Below, in pieces: positions 19,930 to 27,615 of a stretch of 64,000 nucleotides of DNA. The stretch is from assembly GCA_965207855.1 (NCBI GenBank), contig OZ242310.1, forward strand, positions 5,128,151 to 5,192,150, given 5' to 3'. Within the stretch, counting starts at the first letter, position 1; the number at the start of each line of letters is the position of its first letter. Under the pieces are notes generated by a model. It was not told where the DNA came from. It did no database searches and worked only from the letters and a program-made list of their open reading frames with translations. Both the position numbers and the translations under genes were made by a program. This stretch comes from Candidatus Poribacteria bacterium (lineage in GTDB: Bacteria > Poribacteria > WGA-4E > WGA-3G).

Positions 19930-20328
19930 ATGGCTATATTTGAAGCACCTGACCAACTTTACAGTTATATCAGTGAACTCTTTGAAGAAATCGCCACGCT
20001 CCCAGAAGCACAAGCGGCACTCAAGTCGTTGAACCTGCGTGTTCAGTTCAACTACACCCAACCCGACTGCACAATGACGCTAACGGCAGCGAATGGCGAA
20101 TGGACAATTGTTCGCGGTATCGGCGAAGATACTGACCCAGATGTTGAACTCACGATGACAGGCGATGTTGCCTACAAATTTTGGACGGGTGAACTCAACG
20201 TCATGGGTGCGCTAACGACGCGTGAGATTGGCGTTATCGGTTCGCTTGGCAAGGTCATGCGCCTCGCGCCTCTCATTAAGACAGCAGTCCGTTATAACCG
20301 TGAACGAGAAACCGGTTGCGATTCATAA
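19930..20328 (+). CDS. SCP2 (sterol-carrier-protein-like) domain protein
   Basis: 132 aa; alpha/beta lipid-binding pattern resembling SCP-2; weak assignment. Confidence 0.4.
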   Translation: MAIFEAPDQLYSYISELFEEIATLPEAQAALKSLNLRVQFNYTQPDCTMTLTAANGEWTIVRGIGEDTDPDVELTMTGDVAYKFWTGELNVMGALTTREIGVIGSLGKVMRLAPLIKTAVRYNRERETGCDS

Positions 20329-20332
20329 CGTT

Positions 20333-20440
20333 AGGACTTACGCAAACTGGACAGATAAAGGACGTTTTTGCTGAAAACGTCGTTATTTCGGTGTTTTTAA
20401 CCGGCTAAATCCCTAACCCCCCATATCCCCCTTATCAGGG
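20333..20440. repeat. degenerate copy of the MITE-like element (left TIR + internal core, right TIR missing)
   Basis: AGGACTTACGCAAACTGG ... TTTTTAACCGGCTAAATCCCTAACCCCCCATATCCCCCTTATCAGGGGGG, immediately before RBS and ATG 20459. Confidence 0.55.
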
Positions 20441-20458
20441 GGGTAGAAGGAGATTTCA

Positions 20459-21250
20459 ATGGAAACTGACACCCTATTAGAGACGATTGAACCTCACGTT
20501 ACACAGTTACGGGAAGAAGGTTGGTGTGTCTTGGAGAACGTTATTCCGGCTGATGTTGTTGCCGCGGTCTGTGAAGAGGTCGAAACATCAGAAACTGACT
20601 ATAACGCGTTCAGCAAAGAGAACGGCAGATGGGAACGCAACGTTATCAGTTTTATGCCGAAATTTGCTGAACATCTCGCGAATGCGCGGCTCCTCGCTGT
20701 TATTCAACAGTTGTTGGGACCGCAAGTACGGATCTCTCAGACGGAATACAAGATTCGTCCACCCCACTATGAATTGGTGCGTGCGTATCACTCTGATTTT
20801 CCTTATGATCTGAACCAGAAATGGCACATTCCACAACCGTTTCCGAGTGCTGTTATTGGTATTACAACGCTCTGGATGCTCTCGGAGTTCACGACGGAAA
20901 ACGGCGGCACCTGGATTGTTCCGAAAACGCACGTAGACCTTCGGAATCCGAGAGGCAAAGCAGACGGTATTGGTGACCGAAACCCCCTTGATGGTGAAAT
21001 GCAAGCCACTGGTGGCGCGGGCAGTGTCCTCATCATGGATAGCCGAATTTGGCACTCTAACGCAGAAAATCCGAGTGCGGGTAAACGAACTGCTGTCGTT
21101 GTTAGATACGCACCGTGGTGGCTCAATTTGGAACTCTTCGGTGTGAATACTGCAACGATTCCGGGCGAGACCTTCGATAAACTACCGGATGATGTTAAAC
21201 TTCTTTACGAACACCGCGCAGAAAACCGTGAACCGACTGTTTGGGTTTGA
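20459..21250 (+). CDS. PhyH-family Fe/2OG dioxygenase (second paralog)
   Basis: 263 aa; HSDFPYD ... WHSNAENPS His/Asp/His arrangement; RBS GAAGGAG upstream. Confidence 0.65.
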   Translation: METDTLLETIEPHVTQLREEGWCVLENVIPADVVAAVCEEVETSETDYNAFSKENGRWERNVISFMPKFAEHLANARLLAVIQQLLGPQVRISQTEYKIRPPHYELVRAYHSDFPYDLNQKWHIPQPFPSAVIGITTLWMLSEFTTENGGTWIVPKTHVDLRNPRGKADGIGDRNPLDGEMQATGGAGSVLIMDSRIWHSNAENPSAGKRTAVVVRYAPWWLNLELFGVNTATIPGETFDKLPDDVKLLYEHRAENREPTVWV

Positions 21251-21360
21251 TTGTCTGAATCAGGATTTACAAGATTATAGAATTTTCAAGATTGTGGACT
21301 TTCTATGATTAACAACAGGCTTTTACAGAATTACTAAATTTTGGACAATTTTGAAAGTAC

Positions 21361-21470
21361 GATAGACATTTCGCCCCGCTGGGGCTTTGGTCCTGGGGAA
21401 ATCGCACGTGCTATAGACATTTCGCCCCGAAATCAACGGTATGAATGCGCGTGTGGCATTCACCGGGGGC
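21361..21470. repeat. composite REP-like repeat (ATAGACATTTCGCCCCG module x2 + AATCAACGGTATGAATGC-hairpin)
   Basis: GATAGACATTTCGCCCCGCTGGGGCTTTGGTCCTGGGG ... TATAGACATTTCGCCCCGAAATCAACGGTATGAATGCGCGTGTGGCATTCACCGGGGG. Confidence 0.75.
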
Positions 21471-21613
21471 TGCTCGTAAGCGCATCCGAGTTTATTTTTC
21501 TGCAAGTTGCGTTTGTGTAAACAACCATGAGAAAAATCGAAAACGCTTTGAAAACTCGGTAGTAAACACGACCAGAATTGTCCAAACGATAAGTAAAAAA
21601 AGGATAATTCCTC

Positions 21614-22042
21614 ATGTCAACAACACTTGTACACATTGGTGTCCGCACGACGGACTTGGAAAAGAGCATCCGCTTTTGGCGCGATGCCCTCGGCTTGCGC
21701 GTCTTTTCAACGATGAACGGCTGCTACGATCTCACGGATGGCTATCATAACTTCCGCGTCTTCCAGCACGGCGGGCCTGACCGTCCGAAGCATGTCGGCG
21801 GTATGTTGGACTATCTACATATCGGTGTGCGTGTCCCGAATTTGCGAGAGGCGGCAGAACGCTGTGAAGACCTCGGTTTTGAGATTACCTGGGAAGGTTT
21901 AGATGGCAGCAAACCTTACGATCCGAACTCGGACGATCTCCCTTCGGTCGCTTTCAAGGTGGAAGACCCAGACGGCATTGTCGTTGATATTACGGAGCAA
22001 GACGACCAGTGGCCAGGGGTCGATATTGCGAGCAAAAGTTGA
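21614..22042 (+). CDS. VOC-family (glyoxalase/bleomycin-resistance/dioxygenase) protein
   Basis: 142 aa; LVHIGVRTTDLEKSIRFWRDALGL VOC N-terminal motif. Confidence 0.75.
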   Translation: MSTTLVHIGVRTTDLEKSIRFWRDALGLRVFSTMNGCYDLTDGYHNFRVFQHGGPDRPKHVGGMLDYLHIGVRVPNLREAAERCEDLGFEITWEGLDGSKPYDPNSDDLPSVAFKVEDPDGIVVDITEQDDQWPGVDIASKS

Positions 22043-22061
22043 ATGGTTGTCGAATTTCCGA

Positions 22062-22240
22062 CGCTTCTAATACAACCCCCCTTTATCCCCCCTTATCAGG
22101 GGGGAAAGTCACTCGCTTCTAATACAACCCCCCTTTATCCCCCCTTATCAGGGGGGAAAGTCACTAACCGCGCGCTCTGAAAACGCGATTGAATTCACCG
22201 TTTATTCCCCCTTATCAGAGGGGAAGGTCACCCTTTATCC
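22062..22240. repeat. tandem array (2 exact 52-bp units + 1 degenerate) of a palindromic CCCCCCTTATCAGGGGGG element
   Basis: CGCTTCTAATACAACCCCCCTTTATCCCCCCTTATCAGGGGGGAAAGTCACT repeated exactly at 22062-22113 and 22114-22165; degenerate third copy about 22200-22240. Confidence 0.85.
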
Positions 22241-22265
22241 GCCGGCAAGCTGGGGGAATGATTTC

Positions 22266-22982
22266 TTACTCATCCCCACCCCCTAAAACTCCTAACCGAA
22301 ATAGGTAATAGACGAGTGTTAGGAGACTTGTCACTGCTGCGGCGACGTAGGTCAAGAACGCTGCATTTAGGACTTTGCTGGCATGTCGACTTTCTTCAGG
22401 TGAAAGCATTCCGGCTTCATCTATTGCAATCCTGGCGCGTCTGCTTGCGTCCCATTCAACGGGAAGCGTGACTAAGGCAAAAACAACGCCTACCGTAAAG
22501 AGTCCAACACCTATAAGTATCAAGCCCGCCATCTGGAGAAAGAATCCTGCTATCATCACGATATAGGCAAAGGTTGAGCTGAAGTTGGTTGCGGGGACGA
22601 GGGCACTACGCAAGCTTAGCATCGCATAACCGTGTGCGTCCTGCATGGCGTGTCCTGCTTCATGACAGGCGACTCCTATTGCGGAAAGCGATTGGCTTGA
22701 ATAGACATCTTCGGAAAGTCGCAATGTTTTCTCGCGTGGATCGTAATGGTCGCTTAAAAAACCCTGTGCGCGTTCAATCCGCACGCCGCTGACGCCGTGT
22801 TTATTCAGCATGAGTTGTGCGGCTTGCGCGCCTGTTAACCCGCTCCGTGAACCGACTTGTGAATATTTTGAGAAAGTTCTTTTTGTGCGAAACGTTGCGT
22901 ATAGGGACAACGCGAGTCCCGGTGCGAGGAACACGAAATACAGTGGGTCAAAGAAACCCCAAAACATGATATGTACCTCCAA
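22266..22982 (-). CDS. membrane zinc metallopeptidase (YugP/Zn_peptidase_2-like)
   Basis: 238 aa; HEAGHAMQ HExxH motif; N- and C-terminal TM helices. Confidence 0.7.
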   Translation of the reverse strand: MEVHIMFWGFFDPLYFVFLAPGLALSLYATFRTKRTFSKYSQVGSRSGLTGAQAAQLMLNKHGVSGVRIERAQGFLSDHYDPREKTLRLSEDVYSSQSLSAIGVACHEAGHAMQDAHGYAMLSLRSALVPATNFSSTFAYIVMIAGFFLQMAGLILIGVGLFTVGVVFALVTLPVEWDASRRARIAIDEAGMLSPEESRHASKVLNAAFLTYVAAAVTSLLTLVYYLFRLGVLGGGDE

Positions 22983-23111
22983 ATTGTGTTTTATTTCTGT
23001 TGTTAGATATTATCAGATTTAAGGGAATTATACCGGATATTTTTGTAAAATTCAAGTAATTTTTGACACATTTCGTTGTCTGAATCAGGATTTAGGAGGC
23101 GCGACGTCGTG

Positions 23112-23140
23112 ATTCATAGTTTTCATAGTTTTCATAGTAA
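23112..23140. repeat. tandem 9-bp iteron-like repeats TTCATAGTT x3 (last copy TTCATAGTAAC)
   Basis: GATTCATAGTTTTCATAGTTTTCATAGTAACATT; inverted copies GTTACTATGAA at about 23228..23238 and 23328..23338. Confidence 0.6.
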
Positions 23141-23399
23141 CATTTTGAAAATTGCGCCTTTAAAACCCGCATAAAGTCAGGTACAGCGTGGGTTGGTCGG
23201 CTATCTATGAAAAGGGTGTTTTTTTGCTGTTACTATGAATCGGCATTTTTCGGTTCTCAGCATTGCCCTTGTAACGCCACGGGCGGCGTGGGTTTGGACG
23301 ACTTTCTCCTTTTAGGGATTTTGGAGGGTTACTATGAAAGTGACGTGGCGTGAATATAGTTTTAACTTAACGATATATTTCTTTGTAATTTCCCTTAAA

Positions 23400-23421
23400 A
23401 ATGTTACACTGGTGTAACATT
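23400..23421. promoter_or_regulatory. perfect 10-bp-arm inverted repeat (candidate operator) AATGTTACAC-TG-GTGTAACATT
   Basis: Exact reverse-complementary arms; additional half-sites GTGTAACATT at 23433..23442 and 23521..23530 and AGTAACATTTT at about 23137; inside a 700-bp ORF-free region. Confidence 0.5.
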
Positions 23422-23713
23422 TTGTGTCGGGTGTGTAACATTAGAGAACGCAGTGGTCATAAGGGTTCGTTGGTGTTTCGTTCCCAATTTTCTGTTGTGA
23501 AAAAAAATAATTTGGCGAAAGTGTAACATTTTTGAGGTAGCGGTCAATTGAAGAACGCGAGAAATAGGTGTGTATTATTTCTACTTTGATGCCAGTGGAT
23601 TCGTCAACACAGCTTGGGTTTACTATAAATGTTTCACCCTTATAGGGTTTTGGACCCTGGGATACCTGATTGTGCCAATAGAGGACAAGGCGTGCATTAT
23701 GCTCCTGATGCTC

Positions 23714-23959
23714 CTATGGTGCATGCCAGAGGACATCTCCCAGAGAATTTGACATACCTGGCGGACGTTTCCCATAGGTAGTTTCTATAGGTGGGGACTT
23801 ACGTTCCTTGTTGATTCTACGAAGGAAATCCTCAAAGGTATCTATACCAAAGAATTGAAAAGAGGCACGTACCGCTGGTGGAATTGCAAGTATGACGAGA
23901 ATAATAGTGAGTAGAACAAGGCTCTTGGTTAGCGCAATGATTATTTCAGTGTTTTCCAT
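23714..23959 (-). CDS. small hypothetical membrane protein
   Basis: 81 aa; one strong TM helix (LVLLTIILVILAIPP); no RBS checked; weak. Confidence 0.3.
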   Translation of the reverse strand: MENTEIIIALTKSLVLLTIILVILAIPPAVRASFQFFGIDTFEDFLRRINKERKSPPIETTYGKRPPGMSNSLGDVLWHAP

Positions 23960-24290
23960 TTTTTCTCCTTACGCCGAAAAGAGCAGTTATCTAACTCTCC
24001 GGACGTGAACCACAATAGGTTATTCAAACAACATTAGCTAATCTCCTCTTGTTTATTCATTGAGTATTTTAACACAAAGTGCCACAAGAATGCAAACAAA
24101 AAGTTTACGCTACAAAACCTCTACGGGTAATCAACCATCTTTGATAAAAAACGAGGTCTACATGCCTAAAATCTTGTAAGTAGCAACTTGAATCACTGTA
24201 ACAGAATTCTCTCAACTTTCTTTCGCCTGCTCTACAACAGTATCGGCTTCTTGCTGTAGCTGCTTAGCCCGATTGCGGGTATTGAGGAGG

Positions 24291-24317
24291 CACAAACTAA
24301 AAGTTTATGCTACAAAG
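24291..24317. repeat. palindromic box ACAAACTAAAAGTTTAT + GCTACAAAG tail
   Basis: CACAAACTAAAAGTTTATGCTACAAAG; degenerate neighbour CAAACAAAAAGTTTACGCTACAAAA at 24093..24117. Confidence 0.7.
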
Positions 24318-24410
24318 AGGGTTAAGGTGTGTTACGGCTGACGCAATATAGCGGGCATGAAGAAATATCCAAGCAAAAACACTCGCTCCTACAACTGAAA
24401 CCGCCCTGAA

Positions 24411-25334
24411 CTACAGTAATCTCCCAATTCCCTCCAAAATATACCCAACAATATTAGGTGTAGATTCCCGATCTATCCATTCAAGGCGGGGGTCTTTGCG
24501 GAACCATGTGAGTTGCCGTTTGGCAAAACGACGGGTGTTCTGCTTCAACTGCGAGATGGCTTCTATATACGTACACTCCCCATCCAGATACGCTATCAAC
24601 TCTCTATAGCCGAAACTTTGGAGGGCGACGGTGTCACGCGCATAACCTACCGCTAATAACGATTCGACTTCGGCAATCAACCCATTCGCAAGCATTATAT
24701 CGACACGCTGCTCAATACGACGATAAAGCAATGCACGCGGCATTGTCAGGCAGAAGGCGATAAACGGGTAGCGTTGTTTTTCAGGATGCCACTGCTGTTG
24801 GAGCGCGGACATGGGGGTGCCTGTTAGCTCATAGACTTCTAAGGCACGGATGACGCGGACGAGGTTGTTGGGATGGATGCGGTCAGCAGATTCTGGATCA
24901 CAGGCACGGAGTCGTTCGTGGAGGACATCAACGCCGTGTTGTGCTGCTTCCGCCTCAAGCCGTTCACGGAGTACAGCATCTGCCCCGGGTCCTTCAAATA
25001 AGCCGTCAACAACTGCTCGGAAGTAGAGACCAGCACCACCGACGAGTAGTACTCGCTTACCTCTGTTTTGGATGTCAGTGATTGCTGTGTCCGCGAGGCG
25101 TTGATAATCGGCAACGGAGAAGGGTTCGGAAATGTCTACACAATCTATGAGGTGATGCCGTGCCAGCTGCAGTTCTTCAGAAGTCGGTTTGGCGGTGCCG
25201 ATGTCCATCTGTCGGTAGATTTGGCGGGAATCGACGGAAATAATTTCGGCATCAAGGCGTTGCGCCAATTGAATCGCTATCTCTGTTTTGCCAACCGCTG
25301 TAGGACCGAGGAGGCAGATGAGTTTTGCGTTCAT
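24411..25334 (-). CDS. miaA: tRNA dimethylallyltransferase
   Basis: P-loop GPTAVGKT; start chosen at MNAKLICLL, whose ATG overlaps the mnmA TGA stop (ATGA). Confidence 0.9.
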   Translation of the reverse strand: MNAKLICLLGPTAVGKTEIAIQLAQRLDAEIISVDSRQIYRQMDIGTAKPTSEELQLARHHLIDCVDISEPFSVADYQRLADTAITDIQNRGKRVLLVGGAGLYFRAVVDGLFEGPGADAVLRERLEAEAAQHGVDVLHERLRACDPESADRIHPNNLVRVIRALEVYELTGTPMSALQQQWHPEKQRYPFIAFCLTMPRALLYRRIEQRVDIMLANGLIAEVESLLAVGYARDTVALQSFGYRELIAYLDGECTYIEAISQLKQNTRRFAKRQLTWFRKDPRLEWIDRESTPNIVGYILEGIGRLL

Positions 25335-26434
25335 TTGTCGCGGGAGTCTACAATCCAACCGCCGCCGAGGACGTATTCGCCGTCATAAAAGACGGTGGCT
25401 TGTCCGGGGGTAATCGCTCGGCGGGGTTCGTCAAACTTCACGACTGCTTCTGTGTCGCTGACAGGAGAAATGGTCGCTGGACCGCCGTCATCACGGGATC
25501 GGACTTTAACGTGGGCGCGGATCGGTTCTGTCAACTCCTCAATAGCGATGAGGTTGATGCGTTCAACGTACATCGTGTCCTCAAGGAGCGCATCGGAGTC
25601 GCCGACAACGACGGTATTCTCCTTTGCGTTGAGCTGCGTCACATAGAGCGGTTTGCCGACTGCAATGCCTAACCCGCGCCGCTGACCGACGGTGTAAAAC
25701 GGTACGCCTTCATGCTTACCGAGAACGTTGCCTTCCTGGTCCACAATATCGCCGCCCTGAATCTTTTCAGGTACTCTGTCTTGGAGGAAACGTTTGTAAT
25801 TGGTGTCAGCAACAAAGCAGAGCTCTTGGCTCTCAATCTTTTCAGCAGTGCGCAATTGATACTTTCGGGCAAGGTCGCGGACCTCGGTTTTCGTGTACTC
25901 ACCGAGAGGCATCATGGCGCATTGTAATTGCTCCTGTGTGAGCGCGGCAAGGAAATAAGACTGGTCTTTGCTGACATCGCGCGCTTTGCGTAAGAGATAA
26001 CGACCTGTCTCTGGGTGTTGCTCAACACGAGCATAGTGTCCTGTGGCGATAGCATCACATTCCAACGTCTTGGCGAGGTCAAGGAGCCTACCAAATTTCA
26101 ACTCCCTGTTACATACCATACACGGACTGGGGGTCCTGCCGACGAGGTACTCGTCTACGAAATAATCGATAATCTGTTCTCGGAAAGCGTCCTCGTAGTT
26201 TACGCCGTAGAAGGGGATACCGAGTTGTGTGGCGACGCGGCGTGCGTCCTCAATTCCCTCAAGCGAGCAGCAGTTGGGACGCTCAGGTTCTACTTCGATT
26301 GTATCAGGCGCGCCGAGGCGCATGGTGATGCCGGTGACATCATATCCCACGTCAACCATCATGGCGGCGGTGACGGAACTGTCTACGCCTCCGCTCATTG
26401 CGACGAGAACTTTCTTCATTAGGATACCTGCCAA
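25331..26434 (-). CDS. mnmA: tRNA-specific 2-thiouridylase
   Basis: PP-loop VLVAMSGGVDSSV; 367 aa; conserved Cys residues. Confidence 0.9.
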   Translation of the reverse strand: MAGILMKKVLVAMSGGVDSSVTAAMMVDVGYDVTGITMRLGAPDTIEVEPERPNCCSLEGIEDARRVATQLGIPFYGVNYEDAFREQIIDYFVDEYLVGRTPSPCMVCNRELKFGRLLDLAKTLECDAIATGHYARVEQHPETGRYLLRKARDVSKDQSYFLAALTQEQLQCAMMPLGEYTKTEVRDLARKYQLRTAEKIESQELCFVADTNYKRFLQDRVPEKIQGGDIVDQEGNVLGKHEGVPFYTVGQRRGLGIAVGKPLYVTQLNAKENTVVVGDSDALLEDTMYVERINLIAIEELTEPIRAHVKVRSRDDGGPATISPVSDTEAVVKFDEPRRAITPGQATVFYDGEYVLGGGWIVDSRDK

Positions 26435-27615
26435 TCCTCGTTTCCGGCGTAACGGTCATCGTACACATCTTCATTAAGCGACAGCCCAAGCCCAGGGGTA
26501 TCCGGGACTGTGAACGTGCCATCAGTGAAATCGTAGTTAGAAGTATCCACAACATCACTTGTGAGCGTTGCGACTTCGCCATAGAGGAAATGGGGAATGG
26601 TTTTACCGAATTGGAGGCTGAGGTAAAAACCGAGCAGAGACCCCCAGTTATGTGGGGCACACTGGACATTGTGGACAGCAGCCATATCGGCAAGCCGCCG
26701 CCACCCCGTAACACCCAGTCCTTTCATGTCGTGCTGAATGACATCAATCACGCCAGCTTCAAAGAAGGGGTCGTAAAATTCGAGCGGGTCGCGTGTCCGG
26801 GTCTCGCCATCAGCAATAAGCACTTTCAACCCTCTTTCTTGGATGAAAGCCTTTAGGTTGCGATACAACTCAACATCCTCATCAAACATCTCTTCAATCC
26901 AAAAGACATTGCAATCGCTTGTTTCATTAAGGAAGGTGATGACTTCGTCATAGGTGTATGCATTATTTGCATCGACGAGGATATTGAAACCTTCGCCTGC
27001 GGTACTACGGGCGAGTTGGACGAGTTCTATGTCTCGCTGTAGACCGGCTTTGCGTTCCATGAGATGGTTCCCGCGTCCCATCTTCATTTTGCAAGCGGTA
27101 AACCCGTTGGCGAGACTGCTTTTGACATCGTTCTCAATTCGCTTGAGCCCCTCAGCCTTCGTCTCGTAGAGGAGATCGTTGAAATAGATAGTGCTGTCGT
27201 AAGCAGGCAACCCGTTTGAGAAGCCATCACCGCCAATAAGCTGATAGGCTGGCTTGCCGAGGATTTTGCCGATAGTATCCCAGAGTGCGTTTTCAAGTCC
27301 ACGGAATTCGGGAGCGATACCGTCTTCAGGATTCAAGAGATCGAACGGATTTTGGTTGAGTACGCCTTGTGCATCCTCAGCAGTCGTTGTCGCCCAACTG
27401 CCAGCACCCCAACCAAGTACTCCATCGTCGGTGTGAATACGGATGATACGTTCTTTCCATTTCCCGTTTGGGTCAGGTTGTTTTATCTCCGGTGCTTGAG
27501 AGTTACACCCGATAGCAGGCTGGTCAATTTCGATCGTGACCTGCTCAACTTTGGTAATTTTGATACCGGTTGGATAGTCTGGCACAGTTAGAAATCTCCT
27601 TCCGTTGCCCGGCAA
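26419..27615 (-). CDS. enolase-superfamily enzyme (mandelate racemase / muconate lactonizing / sugar-acid dehydratase family)
   Basis: 398 aa; MR/MLE barrel-domain acidic ligands (ILVDANNAYT, WIEEMFDED, DVIQHDM). Confidence 0.75.
   Translation of the reverse strand: MPGNGRRFLTVPDYPTGIKITKVEQVTIEIDQPAIGCNSQAPEIKQPDPNGKWKERIIRIHTDDGVLGWGAGSWATTTAEDAQGVLNQNPFDLLNPEDGIAPEFRGLENALWDTIGKILGKPAYQLIGGDGFSNGLPAYDSTIYFNDLLYETKAEGLKRIENDVKSSLANGFTACKMKMGRGNHLMERKAGLQRDIELVQLARSTAGEGFNILVDANNAYTYDEVITFLNETSDCNVFWIEEMFDEDVELYRNLKAFIQERGLKVLIADGETRTRDPLEFYDPFFEAGVIDVIQHDMKGLGVTGWRRLADMAAVHNVQCAPHNWGSLLGFYLSLQFGKTIPHFLYGEVATLTSDVVDTSNYDFTDGTFTVPDTPGLGLSLNEDVYDDRYAGNEDWQVS

What the first reader, a model, noticed from the sequence alone, without database searches (positions are those of the whole stretch)
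22983..23713. 700-bp ORF-free region packed with iteron-like direct/inverted motifs and a perfect 22-bp palindrome
- Between the YugP-like gene start and a small ORF there is no credible CDS.
- The region holds three tandem TTCATAGTT repeats at 23112..23140, with inverted copies GTTACTATGAA at about 23228 and 23328.
- It also holds four or more copies of GTGTAACATT, one as the perfect inverted repeat AATGTTACAC-TG-GTGTAACATT (23400..23421).
- A 19-mer TTGTCTGAATCAGGATTTA at 23076 is also found at 21251, forming direct repeats 1.8 kb apart that bracket the VOC and YugP-like genes.
- The region could be a densely regulated promoter, an ncRNA locus, or an iteron-type replication/partition site.
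Basis: seen in the sequence. Interest (0 to 1): 0.55.

Follow-up and report, generated by a model that had tools for sequence, protein, structure and literature searches.

The report
Poribacteria-wide 140-bp intergenic repeat element
The motif-packed gene-free stretch is not a replication origin: it is a deletion scar upstream of a protease gene that holds one copy of an undescribed ~140-bp repeat element, built on three invariant copies of GTGTAACATT, found at many chromosomal sites in every sampled genome of the sponge-associated phylum Poribacteria.

Summary
The interpretation changes.

- **Organism and locus.** The window is from a Candidatus Poribacteria genome. In this lineage a 4.5-kb DUF488-DUF488-RecQ cassette, a candidate defence module kept by close relatives, is missing at 23094/23101.
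- **yugP promoter.** The first 90 nt hold the yugP promoter and 5'UTR, the only part conserved with yugP across species.
- **The element.** The palindrome and the GTGTAACATT copies (23393-23535) are one copy of a ~140-bp element. It consists of a palindrome, conserved inner blocks, an A-run and a third half-site.
- **Distribution.** The palindrome occurs at 112 or more loci in 43 assemblies, 42 titled Poribacteria and one untitled, with at least 9 copies on a single chromosome.
- **Conservation.** Interiors are 50-60% identical between copies, while the 10-mers stay perfect.
- **Placement.** The palindrome end faces a gene start in 71 of 76 cases. The flanking genes are functionally unrelated; one site lies between nuoC and nuoD.
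- **Negatives.** There is no Rfam match, no covariation, no conserved ORF, no consistent sigma-70 promoter and no linked transposase.
- **19-mer.** It is also a dispersed family word, not a private pair of repeats.

Best reading: a new family of interspersed, protein-recognised cis elements of MITE/BOX/Correia type. Its function is inferred, not shown.

The parts
22968..23060 (-). yugP 5'UTR (SD GGAGG) and promoter TTGAAT-17-TATAAT (23055-23027)
   Evidence: The promoter scan scores 10 of 12. The same promoter and UTR are conserved up to the -35 in L198-L202, where YugP is 83-95% identical; conservation stops there.
23071..23094 (+). Copy 2 of the dispersed word TTGTCTGAATCAGGATTTA; copy 1 is at 21246-21269
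   Evidence: (D6). There are 25 related copies (up to 3 mismatches) in 870 kb of other Poribacteria loci, usually followed by 8-9-nt ACAGGATT-type tandem units.
23094..23101 (.). Deletion junction. L001, L003 and L005 carry a DUF488-DUF488-RecQ cassette of about 4.5 kb exactly here, and L006 a related DUF488-containing insert
   Evidence: Window 20000-23094 and 23101-27000 align to L001 12999-9874 and 5314-1414. The junction sequences were read. The cassette or part of it lies upstream of yugP in the more distant L198-L200.
23111..23392 (+). Accessory left module. It has TTCATAGT(T/A)T tandem units (23113-23139), inverted copies GTTACTATGAA at 23229 and 23328, and an internal ~100-nt duplication (23172-23240 with 23272-23340)
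   Evidence: The tandem copy number varies from 2 to 4 among close relatives. The whole module plus element recurs twice in OZ246958.1 (L025, L030) at 81-84% identity with sharp ends.
23393..23535 (+). One copy of the Poribacteria-wide ~140-bp element. Forward orientation runs from the palindrome to the third half-site
   Evidence: BLAST and nhmmer homology of nearly all fetched loci is confined to about 23390-23533. The 82-sequence alignment is A2.
23400..23421 (.). Perfect palindrome AATGTTACAC-TG-GTGTAACATT (half-sites 1 and 2)
   Evidence: The genome scan found it at 112 or more loci. In elements fetched without using the palindrome it matched 20/20 in six and 19/20 in one.
23433..23442 (+). 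Extra direct half-site GTGTAACATT. It is specific to one subfamily; most copies read GGTTATCGG here
23447..23467 (+). Inner inverted repeat AAC(G)C...GGGTT. The family consensus is AAACCCAGT-N4-GTAAGGGTTT
   Evidence: These are conserved blocks in A2. Pairing is no better than in column shuffles.
23500..23535 (+). A-run, TAATTTGG block and third half-site GTGTAACATT (23521-23530). It forms an 18-nt terminal inverted repeat with 23393-23410
   Evidence: I2. The third half-site is exact in 81 of 98 oriented copies.
23547..23607 (+). Remnant copying the junction of two small genes (108 aa and 77 aa) that are intact in relatives
   Evidence: The stretch is 94-97% identical to L002 8330-8283 and L006 252-192. 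Homology with L003, L005 and L006 breaks at about 23546.
23714..23959 (-). 81-aa membrane-like ORF that closes the region. It is called as a gene in L001, L002 and L004
   Evidence: It has no Pfam match.

Best explanation
The 730-bp gap is the upstream spacer of yugP in a Poribacteria chromosome, at a spot where gene cassettes come and go. It has four kinds of content.

1. The conserved yugP promoter and leader.
2. A scar where a 4.5-kb DUF488-DUF488-RecQ cassette was lost.
3. A short remnant of a small-gene pair.
4. Between these, copies of phylum-specific interspersed repeats.

The 'iteron-like' core is one copy of a ~140-bp element. The element is a perfect palindrome of the 10-mer GTGTAACATT, then ~85 nt with conserved blocks (GGTTATCGG, AAACCCAGT-N4-GTAAGGGTTT, a T-run and an A-run, TAATTTGG), then a third GTGTAACATT. 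That third copy forms a terminal inverted repeat with the first. In this subfamily a 290-bp module of TTCATAGTAAC repeats is attached to the left.

Shown: the copies are homologous, so the element spread as a unit. They number at least 9 per chromosome and, by rough extrapolation, tens. They lie in intergenic DNA with the palindrome end facing the start of the next gene. They keep the three 10-mers intact while the interior drifts to 50-60% identity.

Inferred: the 10-mers are recognition sites for a sequence-specific protein, a dimer on the palindrome plus a third site about 110 bp away. The element then works as a portable cis module placed 5' of genes, acting as operator, insulator or architectural site. 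It would be MITE-like in origin and retained by the host. In about one copy in five its TTAAGG(AG) end also supplies the ribosome-binding site of the next gene.
For: - **Distribution.** The palindrome occurs at 112 or more loci in 43 assemblies, 42 titled Poribacteria and one untitled. OZ246958.1 and OZ244821.1 each carry at least 9 copies, spread from 0.3 to 6.1 Mb. About 0.5 chance matches are expected for 20 fixed bases in 596 Gb.
- **Extent of the unit.** Homology between loci covers window 23390-23533 only.
- **Unbiased conservation.** Seven elements fetched through interior plus third half-site carry the palindrome at 20/20 (six) or 19/20 (one), at a fixed 58-59 nt. The third half-site is exact in 81 of 98 copies fetched through the palindrome.
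- **Drifting interior.** Interior identity has a median of 49% between genomes and 55-61% within two genomes.
- **Orientation.** The gene on the palindrome side runs away from the element in 71 of 76 cases. A convergent context occurs once. The window copy obeys this rule, with yugP on the palindrome side and the 81-aa ORF on the other.
- **Stable sites.** The element recurs next to the same genes in several species: a NuoD family appears in 9 loci, and the element was checked between nuoC and nuoD in L024, L029 and L106. GFO-type oxidoreductase and AhpC genes recur likewise.
- **Recent amplification.** One genome holds 8 copies with a median interior identity of 84% (up to 95%), most inside a ~600-nt composite repeat.
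- **Locus history.**
Against: - No binding protein is identified, and nothing here shows binding or any effect on expression.
- The downstream genes have no common function.
- The distance to the gene start ranges from about 10 to more than 600 nt, which is unlike a classical operator.
- No consistent sigma-70 promoter lies inside the element.
- No target-site duplication is visible, and no transposase was found in 112 neighbourhoods, so the mobile origin is inferred from homology alone.
- Most loci were fetched through an exact palindrome, so decayed copies are under-sampled. Some do exist.
- RNA-level action cannot be excluded. In about 20% of copies the palindrome must lie in the mRNA leader or between cistrons.
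Confidence: 0.55

Rival explanations
1. It is a purely selfish non-autonomous transposon (MITE). The 10-mers are transposase-binding sites at and near the terminal inverted repeats, and the copies have no host function.
For: - Terminal inverted repeats of 12-18 nt, a size of about 140 bp, many copies, and an intergenic position.
- Termini are conserved while the interior has diverged.
- A recently amplified subfamily exists in OZ244821.1.
- Single-strand folds close the element with the arm1:arm3 stem.
Against: - No target-site duplication is visible, and no transposase lies in 112 neighbourhoods.
- A 93% fixed orientation toward gene starts, with near absence from convergent gaps, is unusual for MITEs.
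- Copies beside the same genes in several species keep perfect 10-mers although their interiors have drifted to about 50-60% identity. This argues for selection in place.
Confidence: 0.2
2. It is a structured RNA element, transcribed with the downstream gene as a 5' leader or intercistronic element. The hairpin next to the ribosome-binding site, and the alternative long-range pairing of the 10-mers, would control stability, processing or read-through.
For: - The orientation relative to the downstream gene is fixed.
- In about 20% of copies the palindrome ends 12-40 nt before the start codon, so it must be in the mRNA.
- One position lies inside the nuo operon.
- The third 10-mer can compete with the second for pairing with the first.
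- MFE z-scores are about -2 on both strands.
Against: - There is no Rfam match in the window or in 18 other loci.
- RNAalifold finds only stems made of invariant words, with a covariation term of 0.
- The inner stem pairs no better than shuffled columns: 86.0% against 85.6%, with 154 of 500 shuffles as high. On the gene-direction strand it has more mismatches.
- The sequence of the arms is conserved, not just their complementarity.
Confidence: 0.17
3. It is a local, dense operator and promoter array that regulates yugP or the lost divergent cassette.
For: - The cluster lies 340-570 nt upstream of the yugP start, on the correct side.
- A real yugP promoter is in the region.
Against: - In six other Poribacteria species with conserved yugP and the same downstream synteny, the element is absent from the yugP upstream region. 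Conservation ends at the -35 in five of them.
- The same element precedes unrelated genes elsewhere.
Confidence: 0.04
4. It is an iteron-type replication origin or partition (centromere-like) site.
For: - Several direct and inverted copies of two short words lie within 430 bp.
- From memory, not tested: the palindrome core TGTTACAC..GTGTAACA resembles a parS half-site (TGTTNCAC).
- Four of 54 downstream genes are ParA-like.
Against: - There are at least 112 loci, and copies are scattered along whole chromosomes rather than clustered.
- No rep or par gene lies next to the window copy.
- A 2-bp spacer separates the half-sites, unlike parS.
- The region is a deletion junction in this lineage.
Confidence: 0.02

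Closest known systems
Correia elements (NEMIS/CREE) of Neisseria
   Same: Both are ~100-155-bp interspersed elements with terminal inverted repeats, present in many copies in intergenic DNA close to gene starts. Both are often co-transcribed, and both can supply expression signals to the neighbouring gene. (Description of Correia elements from general knowledge.)
   Different: There is no sequence similarity. Correia elements have 26-bp inverted repeats, a TA target duplication and an IHF site. Here no duplication is seen, the left end carries an extra inverted copy that makes a perfect palindrome, and orientation toward the gene is almost fixed.
BOX elements of Streptococcus pneumoniae and ERIC/IRU elements of enterobacteria
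   Same: All are modular interspersed repeats of about 100-300 bp with conserved blocks and variable-number internal units. No linked transposase is known, and effects on neighbouring genes are suspected. The window copy, with its TTCATAGT units varying from 2 to 4 and attached module, is similarly modular.
   Different: The sequences and the phylum differ. BOX and ERIC are defined by long imperfect dyad symmetry over the whole unit. Here symmetry is limited to three 10-mers and one short inner repeat.
REP/REPIN sequences with their RAYT transposases
   Same: Both involve a short, highly conserved palindrome repeated many times. Both are vertically maintained for long periods, and conservation is best explained by a dedicated protein.
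   Different: REPs carry a GTAG or CGTC head (PMC3733652) and, from general knowledge, tend to lie at gene 3' ends. This element has neither head. It lies 5' of genes and almost never between convergent genes. No RAYT-like gene was seen nearby (not tested genome-wide).
Transcription-factor operators with an auxiliary site for DNA looping (lac, gal, deo type)
   Same: Both have a perfect palindromic site near the gene start plus a further site about 110 bp upstream.
   Different: In a regulon only the operator is shared between promoters. Here the whole 140 bp is homologous between copies. The target genes are unrelated and the spacing to the gene start is not fixed.

Membership tests
Iteron-type replication origin / partition site | A single locus, or very few, per replicon, next to a rep or par gene | tested here: not met
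   There are 112 or more loci, at least 9 per chromosome and scattered. The neighbours here are PhyH, VOC, YugP, MiaA and MnmA.
Iteron-type replication origin / partition site | Phased direct repeats of 17-22 bp with an AT-rich unwinding region and DnaA boxes | tested here: not met
   The repeats are 9-11-nt words in mixed orientation at irregular spacing. No DnaA-box search was run.
parS (ParB-binding site) | A 16-bp palindrome with no central spacer, clustered near the origin | tested here: not met
   A 2-bp variable spacer is present. Copies lie from 0.3 to 5.1 Mb in OZ246958.1. The resemblance of the half-site is from memory only.
MITE | Terminal inverted repeats, length under 300 bp, many dispersed copies | tested here: met
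   The inverted repeats are 12-18 nt, the length is about 130-150 bp, and there are at least 112 loci.
MITE | Target-site duplication flanking each copy | tested here: not met
   Flanks of about 100 copies were inspected and no direct repeat was evident. Old copies could have lost it.
MITE | A parent transposon with the same ends that encodes a transposase | tested here: inconclusive
   No transposase family recurs in 112 x 8 kb neighbourhoods. Whole genomes could not be scanned.
MITE | Filled and empty sites among related genomes | tested here: inconclusive
   The element is present in all six close relatives and absent upstream of yugP in six other species. The whole flank differs there, so no clean empty site is available.
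REP/REPIN | GTAG or CGTC head on a 20-40-bp imperfect palindrome | tested here: not met
   The palindrome is AAAATGTTACAC..GTGTAACATTTT, with no such head. The criterion comes from PMC3733652.
REP/REPIN | Preference for 3' ends of genes or convergent gaps | tested here: not met
   71 of 76 copies face a gene start, and a convergent context occurs once.
Transcription-factor regulon operator | Palindromic site upstream of genes | tested here: met
Transcription-factor regulon operator | Fixed position relative to the promoter, and functionally coherent targets | tested here: not met
   Distances run from about 10 to more than 600 nt. The targets are heterogeneous: NuoE, NuoD, AhpC, GFO oxidoreductase, ParA, BioD, Hen1, SNF2.
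Known structured RNA family (Rfam 15) | Covariance-model match | tested here: not met
   Nothing was found at the gathering score in the window or in 18 further loci. Nothing credible appears at E up to 10 in 20900-24500.
Structured RNA (any) | Compensatory base changes that support helices | tested here: inconclusive
   The helices made of the 10-mers never vary. The inner helix is not above shuffles. The left module shows no double changes in the forward fold and one in the reverse fold, in 8 sequences.
Integron attC site | RYYYAAC at the 5' end and GTTRRRY at the 3' end, in arrays next to intI | tested here: not met
   The order of the core-like words is reversed (GTTACAC first, GTGTAAC last). 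Copies are dispersed rather than arrayed, and no integrase lies in the neighbourhoods. The attC consensus is from memory.
Protein-coding gene / pseudogene | Reading frame kept between copies | tested here: not met
   The frame between the ATG in arm 1 and the TAA in arm 3 is split 22/31/29 over the three phases, and ORF lengths are scattered. Only 23547-23607 is a gene remnant.

The most novel reading that the evidence does not exclude
The element is a phylum-specific cis-regulatory or chromosome-architectural device. An unknown Poribacteria protein would bind the three invariant GTGTAACATT words, as a dimer on the palindrome plus a distal site. Through perhaps tens of portable modules per genome it would control or insulate the genes downstream of them, including complex I and peroxiredoxin genes. 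That would make it a global system with no described counterpart, recognisable from sequence alone in an uncultured phylum.
Probability: 0.3. Interest if true: 0.65.

Novelty: new member of a known kind. Interest (0 to 1): 0.42.

Why it matters
Poribacteria are abundant sponge symbionts that have never been cultured, and almost nothing is known about how they control their genes.

- **A handle on an unknown protein.** The element has invariant recognition words, is restricted to the phylum, and has a fixed orientation toward gene starts. It can be counted, aligned, mapped against metatranscriptomes, and used as bait for a binding protein.
- **A practical marker.** It flags Poribacteria contigs, and it warns annotators that such motif clusters are not origins or private operators.
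- **Genome dynamics.** The locus shows that the boundary upstream of yugP is a hot spot where defence, toxin-antitoxin and restriction cassettes are exchanged. Interspersed repeats sit at the junctions.

Tried and rejected
- **Rfam.** Scans of the window at the gathering score, of the region at E up to 10, and of 18 further loci gave nothing relevant.
- **Small protein.** The ATG in AATGTTACAC and the TAA in GTGTAACATT give a 41-aa ORF in the window. The frame is not kept across 82 copies.
- **Sigma-70 promoter inside the element.** Best PWM scores in the gene direction equal those of shuffled sequence, and positions are inconsistent.
- **RNA helices.** RNAalifold run forward finds only the invariant palindrome. 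With ribosum scoring both strands give the arm1:arm3 stem and the inner stem with equal energy. Inner-stem covariation is not above shuffles. G-U pairing favours the forward strand, but most of that comes from related subfamilies.
- **Coherent regulon.** Pfam on 54 downstream genes shows no common theme.
- **Linked transposase or integrase.** Clustering of 669 neighbouring ORFs plus Pfam on the largest families found PhyH, MR_MLE, ankyrin, WD40 and TPR, and no transposase.
- **Orthologues in the window.** I looked for window orthologues of genes that carry the element elsewhere, as an empty-site test. None exist.
- **81-aa ORF.** An exact look-up to obtain more relatives found nothing on record.
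- **attC and parS.** Both were compared from memory and rejected on word order or spacing and on distribution.
- **Literature.** I found no paper on DNA repeats or this motif in Poribacteria.
- **PIN-toxin reading of the 77-aa gene.** Pfam did not confirm it, so I describe 23547-23607 only as a gene-junction remnant.

Full report
**Observation**

Reading 20900-24300 and the repeat and pattern searches confirm every motif.
- TTCATAGTT occurs three times in tandem at 23113-23139, and the last unit reads TTCATAGTA.
- The word TTCATAGTAAC occurs exactly at 23131(+), 23229(-) and 23328(-).
- GTGTAACATT occurs exactly four times, at 23400(-), 23412(+), 23433(+) and 23521(+). There are no other exact copies in 64 kb.
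- The palindrome at 23400-23421 is perfect and extends to 12-nt arms.
- The 19-mer occurs at 21251 and 23076 only.

The ORFs in the gap are 32-60 aa with no Pfam match. The flanks are yugP (Zn_peptidase_2, minus strand, ATG at 22967 behind a GGAGG) and an 81-aa ORF (minus strand, 23714-23959).

**Where the window comes from, and what happened at this locus**

Contigs encoding the identical YugP protein include a Candidatus Poribacteria assembly, GCA_003635245.1. Aligning them to the window gave three results.
- In L001, which is 98-99% identical, the window is collinear except for a 4.5-kb block inserted exactly between 23094 and 23101, straight after the 19-mer. The block holds two DUF488 genes and a RecQ-like helicase. 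The junction sequences show a plain deletion or insertion with 2-3 nt of microhomology.
- L003 and L005 also carry this block, L006 carries a related DUF488-containing insert, and L002 and L004 lack it, like the window.
- In more distant Poribacteria (YugP 79-95% identical), the genes downstream of yugP (VOC, PhyH in five of the six, SCP2, MGMT-like, Cys/Met enzyme, TPR) keep their order. The upstream side is different every time: DUF488/RecQ in three, a restriction-modification gene, a PemK toxin pair with transposases, an amidohydrolase, an enolase-family gene.

DUF488 or RecQ genes lie upstream of yugP in three of these six, directly beside it in two. The window lineage has therefore most likely lost the cassette. 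The cassette proteins match PADLOC candidate-defence models (PDC-M45B at 5.9e-52, and DpdF/PsyrT-type helicase models). The site is thus a cassette-exchange hot spot, and the ORF-free stretch is its empty state.

Homology with L003, L005 and L006 breaks again at about 23546. The stretch 23547-23607 copies the junction of two small genes that are intact elsewhere in relatives.

**The yugP promoter**

A TTGAAT-17-TATAAT match lies at 23055-23027. The same promoter and leader are conserved in five other species, and conservation stops at the -35. None of the motif cluster is conserved with yugP. Only a weak inner-block fragment appears in L198.

**The palindrome belongs to a phylum-wide element**

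These lie in 43 assemblies; 42 are titled Poribacteria and one is an untitled MAG. Two complete chromosomes each have at least 9 copies, spread from 0.3 to 6.1 Mb. About 0.5 chance matches are expected.

Printing the flanks and BLAST/nhmmer show that homology extends over window 23390-23533 only. That stretch defines a ~140-bp unit:
- (CC)TTAAA, then the palindrome;
- about 85 nt containing GGTTATCGG, AAACCCAGT-N4-GTAAGGGTTT, a T-run, a variable stretch and an A-run;
- TAATTTGGCGAAAA, then a third GTGTAACATT (alignment A2).

The third half-site is exact in 81 of 98 copies. As an unbiased check I scanned metagenomes for GTAAGGGTT-N30-60-GTGTAACATT. Seven hits were true elements, and they carry the palindrome at 20/20 (six) or 19/20 (one), at a fixed distance. 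The other hits, apart from one that starts at a contig end, were chance matches scoring at most 13/20.

Interiors are only 49% (between genomes) to 55-61% (within two genomes) identical. In OZ244821.1, eight copies have a median interior identity of 84% (up to 95%), and most sit inside a ~600-nt composite repeat. Variants that lack the 5' palindrome, or that have a hairpin-like 3' block, also exist.

Extra elements found by chance in the fetched 8-kb loci, and the single copy in this 64-kb window, suggest tens of copies per genome. This is a rough extrapolation.

**The left module**

Positions 23111-23392, with the TTCATAGTAAC words, are shared with only a few loci. The complete 435-bp composite recurs twice in OZ246958.1 (L025, L030) at 81-84% identity, with sharp ends. 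The number of 9-nt units varies from 2 to 4 among close relatives. L005 has lost the DNA between two GTGTAACATTTT copies, which shows that the repeats promote rearrangement.

**Position and orientation**

With ORFs of at least 150 aa, the gene on the palindrome side is transcribed away from the element in 71 of 76 cases. The gene on the other side points toward the element in 48 cases and away in 17. A convergent context occurs once. The element is therefore associated with gene 5' ends, in a fixed orientation. The window copy conforms, with yugP on the palindrome side.

The distance to the start codon has a median of about 200 nt, but in 21% of cases it is 40 nt or less. In those cases the element's TTAAGG(AG) end serves as the ribosome-binding site.

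The downstream genes are unrelated: NuoE, NuoD (the element lies between nuoC and nuoD in the loci checked), AhpC, GFO-type oxidoreductases, ParA-like, BioD, Hen1, SNF2. The same gene families recur across species, so many copies are old and stable.

**What it is not**

- **A known RNA.** No Rfam family matches.
- **A demonstrable RNA structure.** RNAalifold finds only helices made of invariant words. The inner helix is 86.0% paired against 85.6% in shuffles. The left-module folds show almost no double compensations, none in the forward fold and one in the reverse fold. MFE z-scores are about -2 on both strands and are driven by the inverted repeats.
- **A coding sequence.** No reading frame is conserved.
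- **A sigma-70 promoter.** No consistent promoter lies inside the element.
- **Linked to a transposase.** No transposase or integrase recurs nearby.
- **Already described.** The literature searches found no description.

**The 19-mer**

The 19-mer is also a family word. There are 25 related copies in 870 kb of other Poribacteria DNA, typically followed by 8-9-nt ACAGGATT-type tandem units. The two window copies do not bracket a mobile segment. Apart from 21280-21596, the VOC-yugP block between them is conserved. The variable DNA (21280-21596, and the cassette site at 23094) starts just to the right of each copy.

**Interpretation**

Shown:
- the motif cluster is one copy of a homologous, dispersed, phylum-restricted element;
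- its three 10-mers are held invariant while the rest drifts;
- it sits 5' of genes in a fixed orientation;
- the surrounding gap is a deletion scar at a variable locus.

Inferred:
- the words are protein-recognition sites;
- the element acts as a portable cis module (operator, insulator or architectural site) of MITE-like origin.

A purely selfish MITE and an RNA-level leader or intercistronic element remain live rivals. A yugP-specific operator array and an iteron or partition site are contradicted by the cross-species and distribution data. In kind it is closest to the Correia, BOX/ERIC and REPIN families. It shares no sequence with them and differs in word architecture and in its bias toward gene 5' ends.

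**Verdict**

The original functional guesses are mostly not supported. The finding is a new family within a known kind of element. It is of moderate interest, because it is phylum-wide and strongly constrained, and because its function can be tested with existing metatranscriptomes and simple binding assays.

Noticed in passing
Window 23094/23101; L001 5315-9873: The cassette missing from the window holds two DUF488 genes and a RecQ-like helicase. It matches PADLOC candidate-defence models (PDC-M45B at 5.9e-52, PDC-M45C, and DpdF/PsyrT-type helicase models). Across Poribacteria the flank upstream of yugP holds different defence, toxin-antitoxin, restriction-modification or transposase genes each time, so it is an island hot spot.
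   Followed up: partly
Window 22062-22260: Downstream of the VOC gene lie two perfect 52-nt tandem units and two degenerate ones, each with the palindrome CCCCCCTTATCAGGGGGG. The 16-mer core recurs 17 times (up to 1 mismatch) in 870 kb of other Poribacteria loci, often next to the 140-bp element. A sub-threshold Rfam whalefall-1 hit (15 bits, E=2.3) lies here.
   Followed up: partly
Window 21357-21470; L001 5330-5400; L025 1150-1240: This is another repeat family: GTACGATAGACATTTCGCCCCG occurs twice, followed by a hairpin-like GAATCAACGGTATGAATGC...GGCATTCACCGGGG. Related copies flank the left module in relatives that keep the cassette.
   Followed up: no
Window 24093-24116 and 24293-24316; L002 7747-8854: A direct repeat CAAACAAAAAGTTTACGCTACAAA occurs 200 nt apart. 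L002 and L004 carry a 1.1-kb insert with a 108-aa and a 77-aa gene between window 24119 and 24197. A similar word (AAAGTTTATGCTACAAA) lies next to an element in L100.
   Followed up: no
Window 21280-21596: The segment just after the first 19-mer is replaced by about 100 nt of different sequence in L003, and is likewise unaligned in L005, L006 and L008. This is a second indel-variable spot that begins right after a copy of the 19-mer.
   Followed up: partly
L016, L019, L036, L061, L099 (OZ244821.1): A composite repeat of about 600 nt contains the 140-bp element and is present in at least six copies on one chromosome. It ends in a promoter-like TTAGTA-16-TATAAT followed by GATGCAAATTTATTTTTT. 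In L056 and L059 a similar sequence directly precedes a 19-mer family copy.
   Followed up: partly
L100, about 430 nt beyond the element's third half-site: A 408-aa ORF begins MKMTFKFRAKPTKTEERW, which by eye resembles a TnpB/IS605 OrfB N-terminus. It was the only transposon-like neighbour noticed and was not checked with Pfam.
   Followed up: no
L001 5515-5727: A 70-aa ORF lies between RecQ and the left module in cassette-bearing relatives. By eye it resembles HicB-type antitoxins. It has no significant Pfam or PADLOC match.
   Followed up: partly
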